Source: Bacteroidota bacterium (GTDB taxonomy: Bacteria; Bacteroidota; Bacteroidia; Bacteroidales; UBA4417). Taken from it: a stretch of DNA of 64,000 bases. Under the pieces are notes generated by a model, which was not told the DNA's origin, did no database searches, and worked only from the letters and a program-made list of their open reading frames with translations. Below are positions 4,213 through 12,775 of the stretch, piece after piece (the first letter of the stretch is position 1; every line of letters begins with the position of its first letter). The translations under genes were made by a program, and so were the position numbers. The DNA is taken from assembly GCA_013376995.1 (NCBI GenBank), contig JACAAZ010000007.1, positions 135,373 to 199,372 of the forward strand, read 5' to 3'.

Positions 4213-4220
4213 TAAATTTG
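4213..4220 (+). promoter_or_regulatory. candidate -7 box TAAATTTG upstream of the cytochrome cluster
   Basis: TAnnTTTG match 53 nt upstream of the ATG at 4274. It is the only such match I saw ahead of the five-gene cluster. Confidence 0.35.
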
Positions 4221-4273
4221 ACATTAAGTTCGGATTAGTTAATAATATTTTCACACTAACTCTTGCTGATAAT

Positions 4274-5140
4274 ATGTCACTTGGCCACAAATTTTACCTT
4301 TTCCTGTTAACAATTATCACTCTAGCTGTTCTGGCCTATCTATCGTTTCATGGTTGGAATTATTATCAAACAAACCTTGAAGACCGGTTTTTTCATCCTG
4401 ATTATGCATCTCTGAAACCAAGCGGGATTTTCGGACATGGCTATGGAATTATTGGTTCATTGTGCATGTTGTTAGGCGTAGTATTATATATAGCCAGGAA
4501 ACGGCTTCGCAGCTGGTCGAGGATTGGCCTGCTCAAGCATTGGCTGGAGTTTCATATTTTTCTTTGCACAGTTGGTCCTATCCTTGTCCTCTATCATACA
4601 ACATTCAAATTCGGAGGATTGGTAGCCGTTAGTTTCTGGAGTATGGTTGCTGTGTTTGCTTCCGGTGTTATAGGCCGGTTCATTTATATCCAGATCCCGC
4701 GGACCATTGAAGGACGCGAGTTAAGCCTCAGTGAGGTTCGTGACATGAAGAGTAATATTGGACAGGTTCTATCTGAATCTTATCACCTGGATGAGGACTC
4801 TTTTAACCTGATCGTTGAATCTACAAGGAAGAAGATAGAAGTAATAGATTCAAACATTATTGCCAGGTATTTCAAAAAATATTCAGCTGACACAAAAGCT
4901 ATAAAGGCAGTGCATTCTGCTTTGTCAAAGAATAACTTATCAAAATCTGAAACCAGGGAATTATTAAGGCTGGTAAAGCACGATATCTCGCTCAACAGGA
5001 GGATTGACAGGCTGGTAACCATGCAGAACCTTTTTAAATACTGGCATGTGGCTCATCTTCCCTTTGCTTTTGTCATGCTGATCATCATGGTCATTCATGT
5101 TGCTGTAACCGTCACTTTTGGAGCTCATTGGATTTTCTGA
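4274..5140 (+). CDS. polytopic membrane protein with two H-x13-H pairs (putative dihaem-b transmembrane electron carrier, ferric-reductase-domain-like)
   Basis: The ATG at 4274 is preferred over the TTG at 4202. About 5 TM helices are predicted. FH-IFLCTVGPILVLY-H lies in one helix and AH-LPFAFVMLIIMVI-H in another. A long soluble insert sits between them. Confidence 0.6.
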   Translation: MSLGHKFYLFLLTIITLAVLAYLSFHGWNYYQTNLEDRFFHPDYASLKPSGIFGHGYGIIGSLCMLLGVVLYIARKRLRSWSRIGLLKHWLEFHIFLCTVGPILVLYHTTFKFGGLVAVSFWSMVAVFASGVIGRFIYIQIPRTIEGRELSLSEVRDMKSNIGQVLSESYHLDEDSFNLIVESTRKKIEVIDSNIIARYFKKYSADTKAIKAVHSALSKNNLSKSETRELLRLVKHDISLNRRIDRLVTMQNLFKYWHVAHLPFAFVMLIIMVIHVAVTVTFGAHWIF

Positions 5141-5142
5141 TT

Positions 5143-6477
5143 ATGGAATTAGTTCTTGAACAAGCCCTCATTTACACTTTAGCTATCCTTTTTTGCCTGG
5201 CTGTGATCATTCTATACTTGTGGCGGCAAAAGAAAAAATCGCGTAAGGTTGAAGAAAAGATATTGAAAGCCAAGGCTGAAGGATTGTATGAACCTGTTTC
5301 ACTGCATCCTGTGGTTGACGTTAACAGTTGTATAAGGACAGGTGCCTGCATTTCTGCCTGTCCTGAGAAAGATATTCTTGGTATAGTTAACGGCAAAGCG
5401 ACAACAATCAATGCTTCTCAGTGCATTGGTCATGGCGCCTGTTTTCATGCTTGTCCAACGCAGGCAATTACACTGTGTATTGGTACTGAGCAAAGGGGAG
5501 TCGATCTTCCCCATATCAACGAGCTTTTTGAAACCAATATTAACGGAGTATATATCGCCGGTGAATTGGGCGGTATGGGACTTATTAAGAATGCCGTTCA
5601 ACAGGGAGGGCAGGCTGTTGAAAATATAGTTAAGTACAGTAACAAACATCATGAAGCAGAATATGACCTGGTGGTAGTTGGAGCAGGTCCTGCAGGGATT
5701 TCTGCTTCACTGACTGCAAAAAAGCATAATCTGAGATGTATTACCCTTGAACAGGATACCTTGGGTGGAGCAGTGTTTACTTTTCCACGAGCAAAAATAG
5801 TAATGACATCTGCCATGGAATTGCCTTTGTATGGAAAGGTGAAGCTTTCAGAAACAAGCAAAACCGAGTTGCTGGATTTATGGAAGGAAGTTATCGCCAA
5901 AAATAATATCCTGATTCGAGAAAATTCCAAAGTAGAATCAATTGAGAAGCTAAATGGATATTTTGAGTTGAAAACGTTAACCGGTGAGCGATACACTACA
6001 CATAACGTGCTTCTTTCAATTGGGAGAAGGGGTACGCCCAGAAAACTTGGAGTTCCAGGTGAACAGATGGAAAAGGTTGCATATCGCTTGCTTGATCCTG
6101 AGATTATTTCCGGAAAAGAGATTCTGGTTGTCGGCGGTGGAGATTCTGCCATCGAATCCGCCCTTCTCCTTGCTGATCAAAACAAGGTTATCCTGTCATA
6201 TAGGGGTGATGTTTTCAGCAGGATCAAACAAAAGAATAATGAGAAGATTCATGAGGCAGCAGTTTCGGGACTGGTAGATCTTCAGTTTAACACTGAACTC
6301 AGCAGGATTGATAAGGATTTCATTACACTATCAAATTCAAAAACCGGTAAGGAGTTGATCTACAAAAATGACCTTGTGTACATCTTTGCCGGTGGAGAAT
6401 TACCAACACAGTTCCTTGAAAAGGTCGGAATACAGATTACAAAGAAATTTGGGGAAGCCATTCTTAAACATAAATAG
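5143..6477 (+). CDS. membrane-anchored ferredoxin-domain / FAD- and NAD(P)H-binding oxidoreductase (thioredoxin-reductase-like fold)
   Basis: The ATG at 5143 lies 2 nt after the upstream stop. It has an N-terminal TM helix and Cys motifs CIRTGACISACP and CIGHGACFHACP. The dinucleotide folds are VVVGAGPAG and VVGGGDSAIE. Confidence 0.8.
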   Translation: MELVLEQALIYTLAILFCLAVIILYLWRQKKKSRKVEEKILKAKAEGLYEPVSLHPVVDVNSCIRTGACISACPEKDILGIVNGKATTINASQCIGHGACFHACPTQAITLCIGTEQRGVDLPHINELFETNINGVYIAGELGGMGLIKNAVQQGGQAVENIVKYSNKHHEAEYDLVVVGAGPAGISASLTAKKHNLRCITLEQDTLGGAVFTFPRAKIVMTSAMELPLYGKVKLSETSKTELLDLWKEVIAKNNILIRENSKVESIEKLNGYFELKTLTGERYTTHNVLLSIGRRGTPRKLGVPGEQMEKVAYRLLDPEIISGKEILVVGGGDSAIESALLLADQNKVILSYRGDVFSRIKQKNNEKIHEAAVSGLVDLQFNTELSRIDKDFITLSNSKTGKELIYKNDLVYIFAGGELPTQFLEKVGIQITKKFGEAILKHK

Positions 6478-6502: not shown

Positions 6503-8317
6503 ATGAGATTCATACTTGCATCGATTGTATTTGCTTTATTGCTTTGTTGTGGTAAACACAGCCAGGCCCAGATATCACCAGGAGATCTTGCCGAGGTGCA
6601 TGCCCAGCTTGAAGGTATTTCGAACTGCACAAAATGCCATACCCTTGGTTCAAAGGTGTCGAACGAAAAATGCCTGCAATGCCATACTGAAGTAAGTGCC
6701 AGAATTAAAAGCCAGAAAGGTTACCATTCATCTGTTCCTGTTTCCGGTAAAGCTTGTGTGAGTTGTCATAATGATCATCATGGTAAGAAATTCCAGATAA
6801 TCCGTTTCAATCCGGAAAGTTTTGATCACTTGTTTGCCGGTTACAAACTCCAGGGTGCGCATGCTAAACAGGAGTGCAAGAAATGCCATAAGCCGGAGAA
6901 TATCAGTGTGCCTGCAATTAAGAACAAGAAGTTCACTTACCTGGGACTAAGCACTAATTGCGGATCCTGCCATACAGATTATCACCAGAATACACTTTCC
7001 CTGACTTGTTCAAATTGCCATGGCTTTGACAACTTTAAGCCTGCGGTTAACTTCATCCATAATTCGGCAAAATTCAAACTGAGCGGGAAGCACGTTGATG
7101 TGCCCTGCGTGAAGTGTCATAAGATCACGGTATTAAAGGGATTGAAGTTCCAGGAATTTACCGGAATCCCGTTCCAGGGATGTGTGAATTGTCATGATGA
7201 TCCGCACAACAATAAATTTGGCAAGCTTTGCAGTGACTGCCACGTTGTTGAGTCATTCCAGGATATCAAGGGAAACTCCAAAATTGATCACTCAAAAACT
7301 AACTTTAAACTCGAGGATAAGCATCAGCAGGTAGCATGCAAATCCTGTCATAAGGGAAATATCAGTGACCCGGTAAAACATTCAAAGTGCCTGGATTGTC
7401 ATCCTGATTTTCATAAGGCCCAATTTGAGAAGCAAGGTGTTAACCAGGATTGCTCAGTTTGCCATGATACCAAGGGGTTCAATAATACATCATTCACAAC
7501 AGGGAGGCACAAGGAAACGAATTATGCCCTTGAAGGAAAACACCTGGACGTTGACTGCCTGAAATGCCACAAAAAGTCAGATACCTGGAATTTCAGGAAT
7601 TTAGGGAAGCAGTGTAAGGATTGTCACAATGATTATCATGAGAAGCAGTTTGTTAACCAGGGAGGTGTTCAGGATTGTGCGGATTGTCATAATGTAGCCG
7701 GCTTCAGTAATGCCAACTACACAATTGAGCAACACGACAAGGGCAACTTCCAGCTTAAAGGTGCTCACCTTGCAACACCATGCAATGCATGCCATCTTAA
7801 GAATAATAAATGGGCGTTCAGAGATATTGGGAAAAAGTGTAAGGATTGTCACCAGGATATTCATCAGAATAGTATAGATATAAAATATTATCCTGATCAT
7901 TCCTGCGAAAGTTGTCACAACCCTGAGGAATGGGCTTCAATAGCATATGATCACTCTCAGACGAACTTTAAGTTGTCCGGAGTTCATGCTACAACTCCCT
8001 GCCGGAAGTGCCACTTTGAAAACAAGCCTGGAGGCCAGACCGAACAGCGATTTGCCGGGCTTCCACAAGATTGCAATGGCTGTCATACCGATAATCATAA
8101 TCATCAATTTGATGAAAATGGTAAGACTGAATGTATAAAGTGCCATTCCTCAGAGGCCTGGACCATCAAGGATTTTGATCATAATAAGACTGGATTTAAA
8201 CTGGATGGAAGACATGAACATGTGCCTTGTAATAAATGCCATGTGCCTGTTAAGGAACAGCAAATCACCTATGTATTGTATAAGATAAAAGATACGCGAT
8301 GCGAAAGTTGTCACTGA
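6503..8317 (+). CDS. multihaem c-type cytochrome, 23 CxxCH motifs
   Basis: The ATG at 6503 follows the upstream stop at 6477. It has a signal peptide (MRFILASIVFALLLCCGKHSQAQ). I counted 23 CxxCH motifs in 604 aa, with recurrent CxxCHxDxH...F modules. Confidence 0.9.
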   Translation: MRFILASIVFALLLCCGKHSQAQISPGDLAEVHAQLEGISNCTKCHTLGSKVSNEKCLQCHTEVSARIKSQKGYHSSVPVSGKACVSCHNDHHGKKFQIIRFNPESFDHLFAGYKLQGAHAKQECKKCHKPENISVPAIKNKKFTYLGLSTNCGSCHTDYHQNTLSLTCSNCHGFDNFKPAVNFIHNSAKFKLSGKHVDVPCVKCHKITVLKGLKFQEFTGIPFQGCVNCHDDPHNNKFGKLCSDCHVVESFQDIKGNSKIDHSKTNFKLEDKHQQVACKSCHKGNISDPVKHSKCLDCHPDFHKAQFEKQGVNQDCSVCHDTKGFNNTSFTTGRHKETNYALEGKHLDVDCLKCHKKSDTWNFRNLGKQCKDCHNDYHEKQFVNQGGVQDCADCHNVAGFSNANYTIEQHDKGNFQLKGAHLATPCNACHLKNNKWAFRDIGKKCKDCHQDIHQNSIDIKYYPDHSCESCHNPEEWASIAYDHSQTNFKLSGVHATTPCRKCHFENKPGGQTEQRFAGLPQDCNGCHTDNHNHQFDENGKTECIKCHSSEAWTIKDFDHNKTGFKLDGRHEHVPCNKCHVPVKEQQITYVLYKIKDTRCESCH

Positions 8318-11142
8318 TAATTCTGCTTGTAGTTGTTGTGATGTCAGCAAAATTGCTGTCTCCGTCACCACATGGCCCTGACTTCAAGATAAGTTGCGGA
8401 GTATGTCATAGCGCCAAGGGTTGGGATTACGACAGGAATGTTTCCACTTTTCGGCATGATTCTACCGGGTTCATGCTGCTTGGCCAGCATAATTCAGTAA
8501 GCTGTAAAGCTTGTCATTCAACCCTTGTTTTTTCTGAGGCCAGGGGTAAGCAGAATTGCAATGCATGTCATGCCGATATCCATGAACAGACGCTTGGAAA
8601 TGATTGCGGAAGATGTCACACTCCTTCAGCCTGGCTGGTAAATAATATCACTGACCTGCACTTGAAAAGCCGTTTCCCTTTACAAGGTAAACACGCCATA
8701 GCTGACTGTTATTCATGTCATAAATCGGGCTCACTTCATCGTTTCGATCCCTTGGGAACAGAATGTTACGACTGTCACAGGACTGATTTTGAAGCTACGG
8801 CTCACCCTAACCATGTTCAGGGAGGGTTTTCCACAAACTGTTCAGAATGTCATATGGTTACAGGGTTCAATTGGAATAGTACCAATATCAACCATTCCTT
8901 TTTCCCGTTAACCGGAGGGCATTCACTTGATTGCAGCAGATGCCATACAAGCGGCAGTTATTCCGGCCTTTCCAGGTCCTGTGAATCCTGTCATCAGAAA
9001 GATTATAGTTCAGCCAACAATCCCAGCCACCAGGATCTGAACTTTCCTCTAGATTGTTCCCTCTGTCATACTACCAGCCCTGGATGGAAACCGGCTGAAT
9101 ACAAGGATCATGACAGCAGGTTCTTCCCCATATACTCCGGAAAGCACAATGGAGTCTGGAATGCCTGTTCGGATTGTCATGCCAACCCTTCGAATTACGC
9201 AATTTTCAGCTGTGTAAGCTGTCATGATCATAATCAAACATCGACAGACGAAGCCCATAGCAGTGTTGGTGGATATGTTTACAGCAGTGATGCATGTTTT
9301 CAGTGCCATCCCCAGGGAAGTGCAACCGGATCCTTTAATCACTCTACTTCCGGATTCCCGCTTACAGGCGCTCATTCAACCACACCATGCAGTCAATGTC
9401 ATGCAAACGGTTATGCAGGGACAACGACAGTGTGTGCGGATTGCCATACCAATAATTATAACCAGACCACCAATCCGAATCATACAACTGCGAATATTTC
9501 AAACCAATGTGCGCTTTGCCATACAACGAATCCAGGGTGGAAACCAGCCACATTTCCTACTCATAGCACCTATTATGAATTGACCGGTGCTCATACCTCC
9601 GTGGATTGCAATTCATGTCACAACGGTAATTATTCGAATACACCTAATAACTGTGCAGGTTGTCATACCAATAACTATAACCAGACTGCAAATCCTCCCC
9701 ATGTTTCTCTTGGGCTGAGTACAGAATGCTCAACCTGCCATACTACAAATCCTGGCTGGAAGCCGGCAACTTTTGCGGTTCACGATACTTATTACGTTCT
9801 GGCAGGCATTCATACTACTGTAGCCTGTAGTGATTGTCATTCAGCTGGTATTTATACAAATGCTCCGACTACCTGTTATGGATGTCATGCCGCAAACTAT
9901 AACCAGACAACGAATCCTCCTCATGCTACTTCTCAATTTTCGACCGATTGTGCCTCCTGCCATACGCAAACTGCATGGGTTCCTGCAACATTCGACCATG
10001 ATAACCAATACTTTCCTATCTATTCAGGGAAGCATAATAACCAATGGACACTTTGTTCTGAATGCCATTCGAATCCGGCAAACTATGCACAATTCAGTTG
10101 TATTGACTGCCATTCACATAGTAATAAGACAGAAGTTGATAACCAGCATTCAGGAGTAGGTGGTTATGCATACAATAGCCCGGCATGCTACGCCTGTCAT
10201 CCAACAGGATCAACGGCGGGTGCCTTTAATCACGGAACATCTCCTTTCCCGTTAACCGGGGGACACCAGGGTGTTGATTGTAGTGCTTGCCATTCAAATG
10301 GTTATGTCAATACAAGTATGATTTGTAAGGATTGTCATACTCCCAATTACAACCAGACATCTAATCCTGTGCATGCCGCTATTGGCATTTCTACGGATTG
10401 CGCTGTTTGTCATACTACAAACCCTGGCTGGCAACCAGCAACTTTCCCAACTCATAATAATTATTATGCACTTACAGGAGCTCATTCAACGATTTCCTCA
10501 AATTGTGCATCATGTCATAATGGTAACTACAATTCCACCCCGAATGTATGTTCAGGATGTCACATGAACAACTATAACCAGACCAATAATCCAAGTCATG
10601 TGACACTAGGATTATCGAATGATTGTGCCACCTGCCATACAACAAATCCAGGCTGGACACCTGCGACTTTCTCCATTCACAACAATTATTATGTGCTTGC
10701 CGGTGCTCATATTTCTCTGGCTTGCAATACCTGCCATAACGGGAATTACAACAACATCCCGAATACCTGTGTAGGCTGCCACCTGACAGATTATAACCAG
10801 ACGAACAATCCACCTCATGCTTCAGCACAATATCCTACAGATTGCGAGAGTTGCCATACACAAACCGCATGGATTCCATCTACTTTCAATCATGACGCCC
10901 AATACTTCCCCATTTATTCGGGAGCACATAACGGGCAGTGGAGTACTTGTTCCGATTGCCATACAAATTCTTCAAATTACACGGTATTTACGTGTTTAAC
11001 CTGTCATGCGCAGTCGACAATGAACAATTCCCATAGTGGAGTCTCAGGATATTCGTACAATAGCAATGCTTGTTATCAATGTCATCCGAACGGTTCTTCC
11101 GGTGGGAAAATGAGAATTCAGAATAAGGATAAAATAGATTAA
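8299..11142 (+). CDS. giant multihaem c-type cytochrome, 37 CxxCH motifs
   Basis: It has its own signal peptide (MRKLSLIILLVVVVMSAKLL). I counted 37 CxxCH motifs in 947 aa, with repeated CHTxNYNQTxNPxH and CHTTNPGWKPATF modules. It overlaps the upstream gene by 19 nt. Confidence 0.9.
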   Translation: MRKLSLIILLVVVVMSAKLLSPSPHGPDFKISCGVCHSAKGWDYDRNVSTFRHDSTGFMLLGQHNSVSCKACHSTLVFSEARGKQNCNACHADIHEQTLGNDCGRCHTPSAWLVNNITDLHLKSRFPLQGKHAIADCYSCHKSGSLHRFDPLGTECYDCHRTDFEATAHPNHVQGGFSTNCSECHMVTGFNWNSTNINHSFFPLTGGHSLDCSRCHTSGSYSGLSRSCESCHQKDYSSANNPSHQDLNFPLDCSLCHTTSPGWKPAEYKDHDSRFFPIYSGKHNGVWNACSDCHANPSNYAIFSCVSCHDHNQTSTDEAHSSVGGYVYSSDACFQCHPQGSATGSFNHSTSGFPLTGAHSTTPCSQCHANGYAGTTTVCADCHTNNYNQTTNPNHTTANISNQCALCHTTNPGWKPATFPTHSTYYELTGAHTSVDCNSCHNGNYSNTPNNCAGCHTNNYNQTANPPHVSLGLSTECSTCHTTNPGWKPATFAVHDTYYVLAGIHTTVACSDCHSAGIYTNAPTTCYGCHAANYNQTTNPPHATSQFSTDCASCHTQTAWVPATFDHDNQYFPIYSGKHNNQWTLCSECHSNPANYAQFSCIDCHSHSNKTEVDNQHSGVGGYAYNSPACYACHPTGSTAGAFNHGTSPFPLTGGHQGVDCSACHSNGYVNTSMICKDCHTPNYNQTSNPVHAAIGISTDCAVCHTTNPGWQPATFPTHNNYYALTGAHSTISSNCASCHNGNYNSTPNVCSGCHMNNYNQTNNPSHVTLGLSNDCATCHTTNPGWTPATFSIHNNYYVLAGAHISLACNTCHNGNYNNIPNTCVGCHLTDYNQTNNPPHASAQYPTDCESCHTQTAWIPSTFNHDAQYFPIYSGAHNGQWSTCSDCHTNSSNYTVFTCLTCHAQSTMNNSHSGVSGYSYNSNACYQCHPNGSSGGKMRIQNKDKID
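9124..10905 (+). repeat. two tandem in-frame super-repeats (888 nt and 894 nt) inside the 37-haem cytochrome gene
   Basis: The units are delimited by the FPIYSG(K/A)HN motif at codons starting 9124, 10012 and 10906. Each unit carries 12 CxxCH in the same order. A third, partial unit (3 CxxCH) follows. Confidence 0.85.
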
Positions 11143-11152
11143 TGCGAAGCTT

Positions 11153-12775
11153 ATGAAGTATTTTGTGTGTTTTATTCTGATGATGATCGGTATTGCTGGT
11201 TTCGGCCAGGCCGGTAAGCAGGTGCTTGAGGGGTCGGTTACTTATATTACCTCTCAAAATGTTTATGTGGGTTTTGCTTCAACGAAAGGCCTGACCGCAG
11301 GAGACACGCTTTATATTCTAAAGGAAAATAATTCCATACCAGCGCTTTTAATTAAGGATCTTTCTTCCCGCTCATGCGTATGTATTGCGCTTAACAGCCT
11401 GGTCTTTACCGTCGGGGATAAGATAATAAGCGGTGAAAAGCTAGTAGCTATTGATTCCAACGCTGCATCTAAAAACCCTGAACCCGTGAAACCAGCCGAG
11501 GTAAAGGTTGATACAGCAACTTCTTCAGGGAGTGGCCAGCAAGCCAGGAAACAATTGATTACAGGAAGGATCTCGGTTTCTTCGAATACAGGTTTTTCAA
11601 ACGTTTCTTCAACAAATGAGCGAATGCGTTATACTCTGCAGTTGAATGCCAGGAATATTGGCAACTCCAGATTATCAGCCGAATCCTATGTATCTTTTAC
11701 TCATAGGAACAATGAGTGGAAGCAAATTAAAAGCAATATCTTCAACGGGCTTAAGATTTATAACCTTGCGTTGAGTTACGAGTTGGGGAAATATTCGCAC
11801 CTGAGTTTAGGCCGGAAAATCAATCCAAATCTATCGACGATGGGGGCTATTGACGGGCTTCAGTATGAGTTCAGGAAAAAGGAATTCAGTGCTGGTGTAA
11901 TTGCCGGATCACGGCCTGATTATAGTGATTACGGGTTCAATTTTAATCTGCTGCAGTATGGGGCGTATCTTGGTTTGGATCATCAAATGGGGAAAGGAAG
12001 CATGCAGAATTCCGTTGCGTTTATTGAACAGCAGAATTCCGGGAAAACGGATCGTCGGTTTGCTTATTTCCAGCACTCCAATACGGTAGTGAAAAACCTC
12101 TACCTCTATGGTTCTCTCGAAGTGGATCTTTTCATCAGGAAGATTGACAGTATCAGCAATAGCAGTCCCAGCCTGACTAACCTTTATGTTTCATTAAGAT
12201 ATAAAATAGGACAGAAACTATCACTTTCGGCTTCATATAGTTCCAGGAAGAATACCATTTATTATGAAACTTACCGGTTGCTTTACACTGAAAGCTATGT
12301 TGATATGATCAGGAATTCGTTGTCCAGCCAAACACAGGGTTATTTTGTGACAGCCAATTATCATACGAATAGCAGGTTGTTATTTGGACTGTCATCAGGA
12401 TACAGGTTCCAGAAGAATGATCCCAAACCGTCGAAGAACCTCTATGGTTATGCAACCTACCTGGATATGCCTGGTTTACATGTTTCATTCACTTTGTCTG
12501 CAACACTGATGCAGTCAACCTATCTTTCTGGTAATATTTTTGGACTCGGTATTTCGAGGGACTTCCTTAAAGGGAAGCTCTATGCGAATATCAACGTAAA
12601 GTATGCCAAATACCTCTATAGCAGTTTCGATGCAACTATCATGCAGTACTTGGGAGAAGCTGACCTGATGTGGCGAATCAGCCGGAAGCTGTCTTTATCA
12701 GTTGACTATAATACAACAATGGAAAAGACTGTGAAGTATGGAAGTGTTTATGTTCAGCTGAGTAAAAGTTTTTAG
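11153..12775 (+). CDS. outer-membrane beta-barrel protein (porin-like partner of the cytochromes)
   Basis: It has a signal peptide (MKYFVCFILMMIGIAGFGQA), a small N-terminal domain and a Pro/Lys/Ser linker. About 400 aa then show an alternating hydrophobic strand pattern. The C-terminus is ...YVQLSKSF (terminal Phe). Confidence 0.7.
   Translation: MKYFVCFILMMIGIAGFGQAGKQVLEGSVTYITSQNVYVGFASTKGLTAGDTLYILKENNSIPALLIKDLSSRSCVCIALNSLVFTVGDKIISGEKLVAIDSNAASKNPEPVKPAEVKVDTATSSGSGQQARKQLITGRISVSSNTGFSNVSSTNERMRYTLQLNARNIGNSRLSAESYVSFTHRNNEWKQIKSNIFNGLKIYNLALSYELGKYSHLSLGRKINPNLSTMGAIDGLQYEFRKKEFSAGVIAGSRPDYSDYGFNFNLLQYGAYLGLDHQMGKGSMQNSVAFIEQQNSGKTDRRFAYFQHSNTVVKNLYLYGSLEVDLFIRKIDSISNSSPSLTNLYVSLRYKIGQKLSLSASYSSRKNTIYYETYRLLYTESYVDMIRNSLSSQTQGYFVTANYHTNSRLLFGLSSGYRFQKNDPKPSKNLYGYATYLDMPGLHVSFTLSATLMQSTYLSGNIFGLGISRDFLKGKLYANINVKYAKYLYSSFDATIMQYLGEADLMWRISRKLSLSVDYNTTMEKTVKYGSVYVQLSKSF

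What the first reader, a model, noticed from the sequence alone, without database searches (positions are those of the whole stretch)
4274..5140. Membrane protein with two H-x13-H pairs: putative bis-haem-b transmembrane wire
I counted residues directly. In ...KHWLEFH-IFLCTVGPILVLY-HTTF... exactly 13 residues separate two His in one predicted TM helix. In ...WHVAH-LPFAFVMLIIMVI-HVAV... exactly 13 residues separate two His in another.

Two helices each carrying His pairs about 13 residues apart are the established ligand geometry for two stacked b haems in the ferric-reductase/NOX/MsrQ-type transmembrane domain. Here a soluble insert of about 110 aa (charged, coiled-coil-like) separates the two His-bearing helices, which is atypical for that domain. 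The gene is translationally adjacent to an FAD/NAD(P)H protein, as if a NOX-type enzyme were split into two polypeptides.
Basis: partly seen in the sequence, partly recalled or inferred. Interest (0 to 1): 0.6.

Follow-up and report, generated by a model that had tools for sequence, protein, structure and literature searches.

The report
Predicted two-haem inner-membrane wire protein
This unannotated five-helix membrane protein very probably holds two b-type haems and passes electrons from a neighbouring cytoplasmic iron-sulfur flavoprotein to 60 haems of cytochrome c and an outer-membrane pore; the protein class was predicted from genomes in 2017 but has never been tested at the bench.

Summary
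The 288-aa protein (window 4274-5140) has H94-x13-H108 on TM3 and H261-x13-H275 on TM5. Across 83 relatives (28-56% identical), H108, H261 and H275 are invariant and H94 is kept in 82.

It is not a demonstrable ferric-reductase/NOX/MsrQ member. Pfam hits are sub-threshold, profile-profile comparison is not significant, and Foldseek and PDB sequence searches find nothing.

It does meet every published criterion of the "conserved inner membrane protein" (IMP) of PCC3/PCC4 porin-cytochrome clusters (He et al. 2017): five TM helices, SGxxG on TM4 and two W-x3-H-x13-H motifs. That paper already predicted two b haems, and this scan has met the same protein class on other genomes.

- The gene is followed directly by the membrane-anchored 2x FeS + FAD/NAD(P)H protein in 80 of 80 close loci.
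- The two are co-clustered in 19 of 20 wider Bacteroidota loci, in two gene orders, and again in Acidobacteriota.
- In the one exception the gene is broken and the partner genes are absent.

This favours a cytoplasm-to-periplasm wire over the quinol-active cytochrome b that the 2017 paper proposed. "Split NOX" holds only as an analogy. Haem binding remains untested.

The parts
4218..4246 (+). Best promoter-like site upstream of the operon (TTGACA-17-AATAAT)
   Evidence: 11 of 12 matches, 28 nt before ATG 4274. This is a consensus match only, and Bacteroidota promoters differ from sigma-70.
4274..5140 (+). IMP: 288-aa five-helix inner-membrane protein, predicted di-haem b cytochrome (P0001)
   Evidence: It is single-copy in the genome.
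4532..4597 (+). TM3 (residues 87-108) with W90-x3-H94-x13-H108. H94 lies on the cytoplasmic side and H108 on the periplasmic side. G101 and P102 sit midway.
   Evidence: H94 is kept in 82 of 83 relatives and H108 in 83 of 83.
4616..4690 (+). TM4 (residues 115-139) with S130-G131-x2-G134, then R135 and Y138 at the cytoplasmic end
   Evidence: G134 is invariant; S130, G131, R135 and Y138 are kept in at least 90%. This is the SGxxG motif of He et al. 2017.
4691..5035 (+). Cytoplasmic helical insert (residues 140-254) between TM4 and TM5. Its sequence varies except at the QIPRxxxGxELS start and near its end.
   Evidence: One search gives helices 152-169, 174-185, 195-218 and 224 onward. One search shows the short paralogues have only a much shorter linker (roughly 30-40 residues) here.
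5036..5116 (+). TM5 (residues 255-281) with W257-x3-H261-x13-H275. H261 lies on the cytoplasmic side and H275 on the periplasmic side.
   Evidence: W257, H261 and H275 are invariant. This stretch gives the sub-threshold DUF4405 hit.
5143..6477 (+). Partner: an N-terminal TM anchor, two ferredoxin-type FeS motifs (CIRTGACISACP, CIGHGACFHACP) and an FAD/NAD(P)H two-Rossmann body (Pyr_redox_3, YpdA/TrxR-like). It has no CxxC.
   Evidence: It directly follows the IMP gene in 80 of 80 close loci.
6503..8317 (+). Multihaem cytochrome c with 23 CxxCH and a signal peptide (periplasmic location inferred)
   Evidence: A 20-haem homologue is present in nearly all clusters.
8299..11142 (+). Multihaem cytochrome c with 37 CxxCH and a signal peptide (surface or extracellular location inferred)
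   Evidence: Homologues carry about 8-67 haems.
11153..12775 (+). 540-aa predicted outer-membrane beta-barrel with no Pfam family
   Evidence: It is conserved at the end of the cluster.

Best explanation
What it is. The gene encodes the inner-membrane subunit of a five-gene trans-envelope electron conduit of the PCC3 type. It belongs to the "conserved inner membrane protein" (IMP) class.

Haem binding (inferred). Four helices (TM2-TM5) form a bundle. TM3 and TM5 run in parallel, both from cytoplasm to periplasm. Each offers two His 14 residues apart, about four turns or 21 A, on one helix face. H94 with H261 would ligate a haem b near the cytoplasmic face. H108 with H275 would ligate a second haem near the periplasmic face. 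The small-residue faces of TM2 (GxGxxG) and TM4 (SGxxG) would make room for the porphyrins.

Electron path (inferred). NAD(P)H is oxidised in the cytoplasm by the membrane-anchored flavoprotein encoded 2 nt downstream. Electrons pass FAD, then two FeS clusters, then the cytoplasmic-side haem b, then the periplasmic-side haem b. From there they enter the 23-haem periplasmic cytochrome, then the 37-haem cytochrome threaded through or seated on the beta-barrel, and finally reach an extracellular acceptor such as Fe(III), Mn(IV), humics or a partner cell.

The insert (inferred). The roughly 115-residue cytoplasmic helical insert is the likely docking platform for the FeS flavoprotein.

Energetics (inferred). 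Outward electron flow is helped by the membrane potential and conserves no energy itself. The system would act as an electron sink that regenerates NAD(P)+ for a fermentative anaerobe, without needing quinones.

Shown here: the motifs, their conservation, the topology prediction and the gene linkage. Inferred: haem binding, the NAD(P)H donor, the direction of flow and quinone independence.
For: 1. Conservation. H94, H108, H261 and H275 are kept in 82, 83, 83 and 83 of 83 relatives at 28-56% identity. W90, G101, P102, S130, G131, G134 and W257 are also conserved. The conserved positions W, H, G/M, H fall at i, i+4, i+11 and i+18 on both helices, which is one helix face.
2. Structure and topology. 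The AF2 model is confident (pLDDT 92.4) and shows five TM helices. The positive-inside rule puts both His pairs at matched depths.
3. Family likeness. The only recurrent Pfam similarities, all sub-threshold, are to three b-haem membrane families. DUF4405 hits 58 of 83 members, Ferric_reduct 32 of 83 and Ni_hydr_CYTB 19 of 83. Short paralogues reach E=4.5e-7 and 1.7e-6 and are homologous to this family (hhalign 99.4%, E=1e-21, with all four His aligned). Purified DUF4405 has been shown to bind haem b (Huang et al. 2024 preprint).
4. Linkage to the flavoprotein.
- The FeS flavoprotein follows the IMP gene directly in 80 of 80 close loci.
- It is in the cluster in 19 of 20 wider Bacteroidota loci, in two different gene orders.
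- It is there again in Acidobacteriota, in a third order.
- In the one exception (L032) the IMP carries a stop codon and the flavoprotein-to-barrel genes are missing.
- Two loci keep the IMP and flavoprotein pair alone.
5. Sidedness of the partner. All flavoprotein homologues have an N-terminal TM helix followed by K/R, so the FeS and FAD domains are cytoplasmic.
6. Paralogous clusters. PCC4-like clusters put a different cytoplasmic Fer4 protein next to their IMP and a decahaem cytochrome after it.
7. Prior prediction. He et al. 2017 independently predicted two b haems for this class.
Against: - No haem-binding or activity data exist for any member. PCC3 was still described as functionally unverified in 2025.
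- Affiliation to a haem-b family is not statistically established. hhalign against FRD and DUF4405 alignments gives 2% and 8%. Foldseek gives no PDB hit below E=0.4 for either model. PDB sequence searches are empty.
- I could not read model coordinates, so His-His distances were not measured.
- The genome has a cytochrome bd quinol oxidase, so a quinone pool probably exists. A quinol-linked role is therefore not excluded.
- Short paralogues pair with a decahaem cytochrome without any adjacent flavoprotein. According to He et al., proteobacterial PCC3 clusters have four genes without one. The family can therefore work with other donors.
- The flavoprotein's substrate is inferred only from family resemblance. 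Its best NCBIfam score is 146 bits against a cut-off of 340 for YpdA.
Confidence: 0.6

Rival explanations
1. Quinone-active cytochrome b, the original proposal of He et al. 2017. The IMP exchanges electrons with the menaquinone pool. It would oxidise quinol for outward transfer or reduce quinone during Fe(II) oxidation, much like the b subunit of bc1 or of [NiFe]-hydrogenase, or like the b-type parts of CbcL and CbcBA. The flavoprotein would be accessory or would feed the quinone pool.
For: He et al. proposed this for the class. The genome has cytochrome bd and a weak MenA-like prenyltransferase, so quinones are likely present. Short paralogues and, as He et al. describe them, proteobacterial PCC3 clusters lack an adjacent flavoprotein. 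Weak Pfam similarity includes Ni_hydr_CYTB, a quinone-reactive family.
Against: Linkage to a cytoplasmic FeS flavoprotein is kept across three gene orders and two phyla. That is hard to explain if quinol is the donor. No quinone-site motif was identified. A quinol oxidase that feeds periplasmic cytochromes does not need two haems spanning the membrane or a 115-residue cytoplasmic platform.
Confidence: 0.2
2. The same wire run inward. Electrons taken from extracellular Fe(II), reduced humics or a cathode pass through the cytochromes and the two b haems to the cytoplasmic FeS flavoprotein, where they reduce a cytoplasmic acceptor. This would resemble the Hmc and Tmc complexes of sulfate reducers, which carry periplasmic electrons to cytoplasmic FeS proteins.
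For: PCC3 was discovered in Fe(II) oxidisers, and its IMP gene was upregulated in iron-oxidising Sideroxydans cells. The cofactor chain is in principle reversible.
Against: Inward electron movement works against the membrane potential. Reducing NAD(P)+ (about -320 mV) from Fe(II) or humics is strongly uphill, and no coupling ion pathway is evident. The carriers are mostly MAGs labelled Bacteroidales, Prolixibacteraceae, Marinilabiliales and related Bacteroidota; a mainly fermentative, anoxic lifestyle is assumed from general knowledge of these groups and was not tested here.
Confidence: 0.1
3. The protein is not an electron wire for respiration. It would be a maturation or maintenance device for the giant cytochromes. 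For example, it might supply reductant to keep haem iron or apocytochrome sites reduced in the periplasm during attachment of about 60 haems, by analogy with the b haem of CcmF.
For: The gene is always co-inherited with very haem-rich cytochromes. Some clusters carry a small TPR protein with weak CcmH/CycH-type TPR similarity.
Against: The protein has no WWD or other cytochrome-maturation motif and no conserved Cys for a thiol relay. Two loci keep the IMP and flavoprotein pair without cytochromes nearby. Paralogues pair with ordinary decahaem cytochromes.
Confidence: 0.05
4. The four His do not bind haem. They would instead coordinate a metal ion (a Fe, Cu or Zn channel or sensor) or serve a structural role, and the protein would merely anchor the flavoprotein to the membrane.
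For: There is no direct evidence for haem. The family has no significant sequence or structural match to any solved haem protein.
Against: The i/i+14 spacing on two parallel helices, with glycine-rich neighbouring helices, is the recurrent bis-haem design of cytochrome b, FRD and DUF4405 proteins. The only recurrent weak Pfam hits are haem-b families. The redox context on both membrane faces argues for electron transfer.
Confidence: 0.05

Closest known systems
"Conserved inner membrane protein" (IMP) of the PCC3 and PCC4 porin-cytochrome c gene clusters, and the shorter "MHC + IMP" pairs (He, Barco, Emerson & Roden 2017, Front Microbiol 8:1584, PMC5566968)
   Same: About 300 aa, five TM helices, SGxxG on TM4 and W-x3-H-x13-H on both TM3 and TM5. 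It is encoded with a beta-barrel, a roughly 20-haem periplasmic cytochrome and a larger, presumably extracellular cytochrome. It is annotated as hypothetical. Two b haems were predicted, and all the motif criteria are met here.
   Different: He et al. described it in Proteobacteria (plus Planctomycetes for PCC4) and modelled it as quinone-active, in the context of Fe(II) oxidation. Here the host is an uncultured Bacteroidota bacterium, and the IMP is obligately linked to a membrane-anchored 2x FeS + FAD/NAD(P)H protein that their PCC3 description does not include.
Ferric reductase domain (FRD, PF01794) proteins: NOX/SpNOX, and MsrQ with the cytosolic flavin reductase Fre
   Same: Two His pairs about 13 residues apart on TM3 and TM5 hold two stacked b haems that carry electrons from a cytoplasmic NAD(P)H flavoprotein across the membrane. 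MsrQ with Fre is a two-polypeptide version; this rests on my knowledge of the literature and the titles listed.
   Different: No significant sequence, profile or fold match was found. The protein has five helices rather than six. It has a 115-residue insert where NOX has its short cytoplasmic D-loop (NOX loop assignment from my own knowledge). The flavoprotein is TrxR/YpdA-like with two FeS clusters, not FNR-like. The acceptor is a multihaem cytochrome, not O2 or MsrP.
DUF4405 (PF14358) membrane cytochromes (Huang et al. 2024, bioRxiv 10.1101/2024.03.13.584918)
   Same: TM5 gives the only Pfam hit of P0001, to the H-x13-H helix of DUF4405. 58 of 83 relatives hit it weakly. A DUF4405 protein was purified and bound haem b, and that family is proposed to carry electrons across the membrane to extracytosolic partners.
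   Different: The score is below threshold (17.1 bits against 26.7). hhalign gives 8% and aligns only 23 columns. DUF4405 proteins are associated with ApbE flavinylation and ferrosomes, not with multihaem cytochromes or FeS flavoproteins.
Hmc and Tmc transmembrane complexes of Desulfovibrio, and the CbcL and CbcBA b/c cytochromes of Geobacter (from my own knowledge, not tested here)
   Same: A membrane di-haem cytochrome b couples periplasmic multihaem cytochromes c to a cytoplasmic FeS protein (Hmc, Tmc) or to the inner-membrane electron pool of an extracellular electron-transfer chain (CbcL, CbcBA).
   Different: Their b subunits are NarI-type or PF01292-type. The cytoplasmic partner is an HdrD-like CCG protein, or none, and the donor or acceptor is quinol or the sulfate-reduction machinery rather than NAD(P)H.

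Membership tests
PCC3/PCC4 IMP class (He et al. 2017) | Five transmembrane helices, about 300 aa | tested here: met
   288 aa. AF2 helices and hydropathy give TM1 6-27, TM2 52-74, TM3 87-108, TM4 115-139 and TM5 255-281.
PCC3/PCC4 IMP class (He et al. 2017) | W-x3-H-x13-H on both TM3 and TM5 | tested here: met
   W90-H94-H108 and W257-H261-H275. They are conserved in 82-83 of 83 relatives.
PCC3/PCC4 IMP class (He et al. 2017) | SGxxG motif on TM4 | tested here: met
   S130-G131-V-I-G134. G134 is invariant, and S130 and G131 are kept in at least 90%.
PCC3/PCC4 IMP class (He et al. 2017) | Encoded in a cluster with a porin, a periplasmic multihaem cytochrome and a larger extracellular multihaem cytochrome | tested here: met
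   The 23-haem and 37-haem cytochromes and the 540-aa barrel lie downstream. The arrangement is conserved in 19 of 20 wider loci and, among the 80 close loci, in 77 wherever the contig extends far enough. Cellular locations are inferred from signal peptides only.
PCC3/PCC4 IMP class (He et al. 2017) | Sequence homology to the proteobacterial IMPs of the original description | not tested
   No Sideroxydans or Leptothrix sequence could be fetched with these tools. The family does extend to Acidobacteriota and Fidelibacterota.
Ferric reductase transmembrane domain (PF01794; NOX, FRE, MsrQ) | Match to the family profile above the curated threshold | tested here: not met
   P0001 has no hit. The best of 83 relatives gives E=1.5e-4, sub-threshold. 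hhalign of A1 against 13 FRD sequences gives probability 2%.
Ferric reductase transmembrane domain (PF01794; NOX, FRE, MsrQ) | Six-helix domain with bis-His pairs on TM3 and TM5 | tested here: inconclusive
   The His pairs are on TM3 and TM5 as in FRD, but only five helices are present. Foldseek puts NOX5 at E>3 and TM-score below 0.3.
Ferric reductase transmembrane domain (PF01794; NOX, FRE, MsrQ) | FNR-like FAD/NADPH dehydrogenase as fused domain or partner | tested here: not met
   The partner is Pyr_redox_3/TrxR/YpdA-like and carries a 2x FeS ferredoxin domain.
DUF4405 (PF14358) | Match above the gathering score | tested here: not met
   17.1 bits against 26.7, covering residues 256-277 only. 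58 of 83 relatives hit, with a best E of 5.7e-6. hhalign gives 8%.
Prokaryotic cytochrome b561 / Ni_hydr_CYTB (PF01292) | Match above the gathering score | tested here: not met
   P0001 has no hit. 19 of 83 relatives hit weakly. Short paralogues reach E=1.7e-6, and a few carry a precomputed PF01292 hit.
Any b-type cytochrome | Binds haem b (spectrum, pyridine haemochrome) | not testable with these tools
   This needs protein expression. No member of the family has been assayed, according to the papers read.

The most novel reading that the evidence does not exclude
The IMP and the FeS flavoprotein form a self-contained, quinone-independent NAD(P)H:multihaem-cytochrome oxidoreductase. That would be a new kind of inner-membrane entry point to extracellular electron transfer, alongside the quinol dehydrogenases (CymA, ImcH, CbcL/CbcBA) and the Gram-positive flavin-based route. 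It would let fermentative Bacteroidota and Acidobacteriota discharge cytoplasmic reducing power directly onto minerals, humics or partner cells. The invariant His-for-Cys substitution in the second FeS motif would mark the exit cluster facing the haem, and the 115-residue insert would be the docking platform.
Probability: 0.4. Interest if true: 0.75.

Novelty: new member of a known kind. Interest (0 to 1): 0.45.

Why it matters
Every characterised extracellular electron-transfer chain in Gram-negative bacteria draws its electrons from the quinone pool. This protein may instead link cytoplasmic NAD(P)H to a 60-haem conduit through two b haems. If so, many uncultured anaerobic Bacteroidota, which are abundant in sediments, lakes, digesters and bioelectrochemical systems, could use minerals or humic matter as a fermentation electron sink. 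That would change how their role in carbon and iron cycling is modelled.

The family is large. It has more than 7,600 clusters at 90% identity and about 2,700 at 50% identity. It has no Pfam or NCBIfam model and no solved structure, and it is annotated "hypothetical" everywhere. Even the basic demonstration of two b haems would allow thousands of genes to be named.

Tried and rejected
- Foldseek of both AF2 models (long form pLDDT 92, short form pLDDT 82) against the PDB gave no hit below E=0.4. Cytochrome b561, NOX5 and bc1 cytochrome b appear only among the noise.
- I could not obtain model coordinates, so I did not measure His-His geometry.
- PDB sequence and profile searches with P0001, A1 and A3 returned only coiled-coil noise against the insert.
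- hhalign of the family against FRD and DUF4405 alignments that I built from genomes of the same phylum was not significant.
- The search for related loci with the 83-sequence alignment failed because no stretch was conserved enough. A closer 18-sequence alignment worked.
- I looked for natural fusions as Rosetta stones. P0167 (513 aa) has only a low-complexity N-terminal extension. P0163 (418 aa) looks chimeric: an IMP start, a short CxxCH stretch and a flavoprotein-like C-terminus. I judged it a probable frameshift or assembly artefact rather than a real fusion, by eye only.
- I considered a thiol-relay (DsbD-like) role because the partner is TrxR-like. I rejected it because the IMP has no conserved Cys and the flavoprotein has no CxxC.
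- The quinone-pool check was inconclusive. Cytochrome bd is present, a MenA-like hit is below cut-off, and no NqrF was found.
Full report
**The observation**

The ORF at 4274-5140 (+) encodes a 288-aa protein, P0001. A longer frame starts at TTG 4202. It is unlikely to be used, because homologues start at the ATG and the best promoter-like site (4218-4246) lies inside it.

Direct counting and a script confirm H94-x13-H108 and H261-x13-H275 (codons at 4553, 4595, 5054 and 5096). Both motifs are W-x3-H-x13-H.

An AlphaFold2 model built on 83 relatives is confident (pLDDT 92.4, pTM 0.82). It shows five TM helices, with the His pairs on TM3 and TM5. A helical stretch of about 115 residues (140-254) lies between TM4 and TM5.

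The motif alone is not improbable. The protein has 14 His, and 11.7% of shuffles give at least two H-x13-H. The weight lies in conservation. Among 83 full-length representatives at 28-56% identity, H108, H261 and H275 are invariant and H94 is kept in 82. The other His vary, apart from H258, which is kept in 76.

**Anatomy and topology**

The loop 75-88 (RKRLRSWSRIGLLK) has 6 K/R and no acidic residue. The loop 28-55 has 2 K/R. By the positive-inside rule the N-terminus and the insert are cytoplasmic, and TM3 and TM5 both run from cytoplasm to periplasm.

H94 and H261 therefore lie at the same depth near the cytoplasmic face. H108 and H275 lie at the same depth near the periplasmic face. This is the arrangement needed for two bis-His haems.

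Conserved residues on both helices fall at i, i+4, i+11 and i+18 (W90/H94/G101/H108 and W257/H261/M268/H275). That is one helix face. TM2 (G58, G61) and TM4 (M124, V127, S130, G131, G134) carry small-residue stripes.

His on two helices, with small residues on the two neighbouring helices, is the design of the four-helix haem bundle of cytochrome b. This is established knowledge and is an analogy here, not a test.

**Family assignment**

P0001 has no NCBIfam hit. Its only Pfam hit is sub-threshold: DUF4405, 17.1 bits against a cut-off of 26.7, on TM5.

Scanning all 83 relatives, three families recur: DUF4405 (58 members), Ferric_reduct (32) and Ni_hydr_CYTB (19). All are membrane b-haem families, and all the hits are sub-threshold.

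A shorter paralogous family of about 190 aa is homologous to this one, with the four His aligned (hhalign 99.4%, E=1e-21). Its members reach E=4.5e-7 for DUF4405 and E=1.7e-6 for Ni_hydr_CYTB, and a few carry precomputed Pfam hits.

Formal tests against specific families fail:
- hhalign against FRD and DUF4405 alignments that I assembled from the same phylum gives 2% and 8%.
- Foldseek of both models against the PDB gives nothing below E=0.4.
- PDB sequence searches are empty.

So the protein resembles di-haem b proteins in design, but it cannot be filed under FRD/NOX/MsrQ.

**Prior description**

A look-up of earlier scan notes pointed to He, Barco, Emerson & Roden 2017, which I read (PMC5566968).

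The paper describes a "conserved inner membrane protein" of about 300 aa in the PCC3 and PCC4 porin-cytochrome clusters. It has five TM helices, SGxxG on TM4 and two W-x3-H-x13-H motifs on TM3 and TM5. The authors compared it to FRD and cytochrome b and predicted that it binds two b haems and is "possibly" quinone-active. They also mention shorter IMPs next to multihaem cytochromes. P0001 meets each motif criterion.

A 2025 preprint still calls PCC3 functionally unverified and its fourth gene simply "an inner membrane protein". A separate preprint shows that a purified DUF4405 protein binds haem b.

This scan has also reached it on other genomes.

**Context**

In the window, five same-strand genes are tightly packed:

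| Gene | Coordinates |
|---|---|
| IMP | 4274-5140 |
| FeS flavoprotein | 5143-6477 |
| 23-haem cytochrome | 6503-8317 |
| 37-haem cytochrome | 8299-11142 |
| 540-aa barrel | 11153-12775 |

A convergent gene follows.

The flavoprotein has an N-terminal TM helix followed by K/R, two ferredoxin-type motifs and a Pyr_redox_3 (TrxR/YpdA-like) body. That body has GxGxxG and GxGxxA motifs and no CxxC.

The family is large: more than 7,600 clusters at 90% identity and about 2,700 at 50% identity, all annotated "hypothetical". In a sample of 401 genomes of the phylum, full-length orthologues occur in about 45.

Linkage between the IMP and the flavoprotein:
- **Wider Bacteroidota loci.** In 20 loci fetched with flanks, 19 contain the flavoprotein, a 20-haem cytochrome, a second cytochrome of 10-67 haems and the barrel. 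The flavoprotein lies either directly after the IMP (10 loci) or after the barrel (9 loci), which makes two gene orders.
- **The exception.** In L032 the IMP carries an in-frame stop, and the flavoprotein-to-barrel genes are absent between otherwise syntenic neighbours.
- **Closest loci.** In the 80 closest loci from named genome records, nearly all labelled Bacteroidota MAGs (a few carry other or no labels), the flavoprotein follows the IMP in 80 of 80. Cytochromes follow in 77. Two loci have the pair alone.
- **Another phylum.** An Acidobacteriota branch at 30% identity shows a third order: cytochrome, cytochrome, 550-aa protein, 279-aa protein, IMP, Fer4/Pyr_redox protein.
- **Paralogous clusters.** PCC4-like paralogues sit between a cNMP-binding Fer4 protein and a decahaem cytochrome, with a Pyr_redox_2-FHA-Fer2 protein nearby.
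- **Short paralogues.** These are followed by a decahaem cytochrome and have no adjacent flavoprotein.

**Mechanism**

The most economical reading is a transmembrane wire:

cytoplasmic NAD(P)H, then FAD, then two FeS clusters, then haem b (H94/H261), then haem b (H108/H275), then the periplasmic 23-haem cytochrome, then the 37-haem cytochrome and barrel, then an external acceptor.

The repeated, order-independent and cross-phylum linkage to a cytoplasmic FeS flavoprotein, together with the co-loss in L032, favours this over the quinol model of He et al. So does the long cytoplasmic insert. That insert is present where a cytoplasmic FeS partner is encoded and is much shorter in the short paralogues. 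This rests on only three lineages, so it is suggestive and no more.

The quinol model is not excluded. The genome has cytochrome bd, and short paralogues work without an adjacent flavoprotein, as do the four-gene proteobacterial clusters described by He et al..

Outward electron flow is aided by the membrane potential and conserves no energy. The system would therefore serve as an electron sink for NAD(P)+ regeneration. This is inference.

"Split NOX" is an analogy. The dehydrogenase is not FNR-like, and two FeS clusters intervene. In cofactor order the system is as close to the Hmc and Tmc complexes or to di-haem succinate:quinone reductases as it is to NOX.

**Limits**

No coordinates were available to measure His-His distances. 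No multimer prediction was available. Homology to the original proteobacterial IMPs was not tested. Haem binding and the electron donor remain untested.

**Verdict**

This is a new Bacteroidota member of a predicted but biochemically untested protein class, and its conserved NAD(P)H-type partner is the more interesting aspect.

Noticed in passing
window 5143-6477 (residues 63-74 and 94-105 of the flavoprotein): The second ferredoxin motif always has His in place of the second Cys (C-x2-H-x2-C-x3-CP). This holds in all 80 full-length close homologues whose motifs could be read (one further partial hit had none) and in 18 of 18 wider ones. The first motif has Thr or Ser when the gene follows the IMP and Cys in most of the versions that lie after the barrel (7 of 8 listed). 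This suggests a His-ligated or 3Fe cluster, possibly the exit cluster towards the haem.
   Followed up: partly
L032 (G177:C5:85301-104173): This is a natural remnant of the cluster. The IMP gene has an in-frame TAA, the TPR gene is kept, and the flavoprotein, both cytochromes and the barrel are missing between neighbours that are syntenic with L034.
   Followed up: partly
L034:4888-5484, L044:4878-5459 (absent from the window): Many clusters carry an extra protein of about 195 aa between the IMP and the next gene. It has one TM helix and TPR repeats, with weak similarity to the CcmH/CycH cytochrome-biogenesis TPR domain.
   Followed up: partly
Own genome, G000:C13:56361-59090 (-), outside the window: A 909-aa ORF combines an N-terminal polytopic cytochrome-b-like region, which gives a DUF4405 hit above cut-off, with 11 CxxCH motifs. 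It looks like a fused b/c cytochrome, reminiscent of CbcL-type proteins.
   Followed up: no
L057-L061 (for example L059:1186-8464): PCC4-like paralogous clusters put the IMP between a protein with cNMP-binding domains (three matched stretches) plus a 4Fe-4S dicluster and a decahaem cytochrome. FHA-domain proteins and a Pyr_redox_2-FHA-Fer2 protein lie nearby. This suggests nucleotide- or phospho-regulated electron input.
   Followed up: partly
L052-L056; family f25 of the phylum sample: A short (about 190 aa) five-helix paralogue with both H-x13-H motifs is followed by a decahaem cytochrome c. It occurs in 69 of 87 sampled genomes of one family with 2-3 Mb genomes. In at least eight of them a bona fide DUF4405 gene lies about 3 kb away.
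   Followed up: partly
L149, L154: In two MAG loci the IMP and flavoprotein pair stands alone, with no multihaem cytochrome or barrel within 7-8 kb downstream. The neighbours are BatD, a GH2 glycosidase, ComA and a shikimate dehydrogenase.
   Followed up: partly
window 4394-4438 (residues 41-55): A third H-x13-H (H41...H55) lies in the predicted periplasmic loop within the conserved LKPSGxxGHGxG stretch. H41 is kept in 45 of 83 relatives and H55 in 56 of 83. Its role is unknown; it might be a docking site for the cytochrome.
   Followed up: no
P0163 (public protein collection): A 418-aa database protein joins an IMP N-terminus, a short CxxCH stretch and a flavoprotein-like C-terminus. I judged it a probable frameshift or assembly artefact that mirrors the gene order rather than a genuine fusion, by eye only.
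   Followed up: partly
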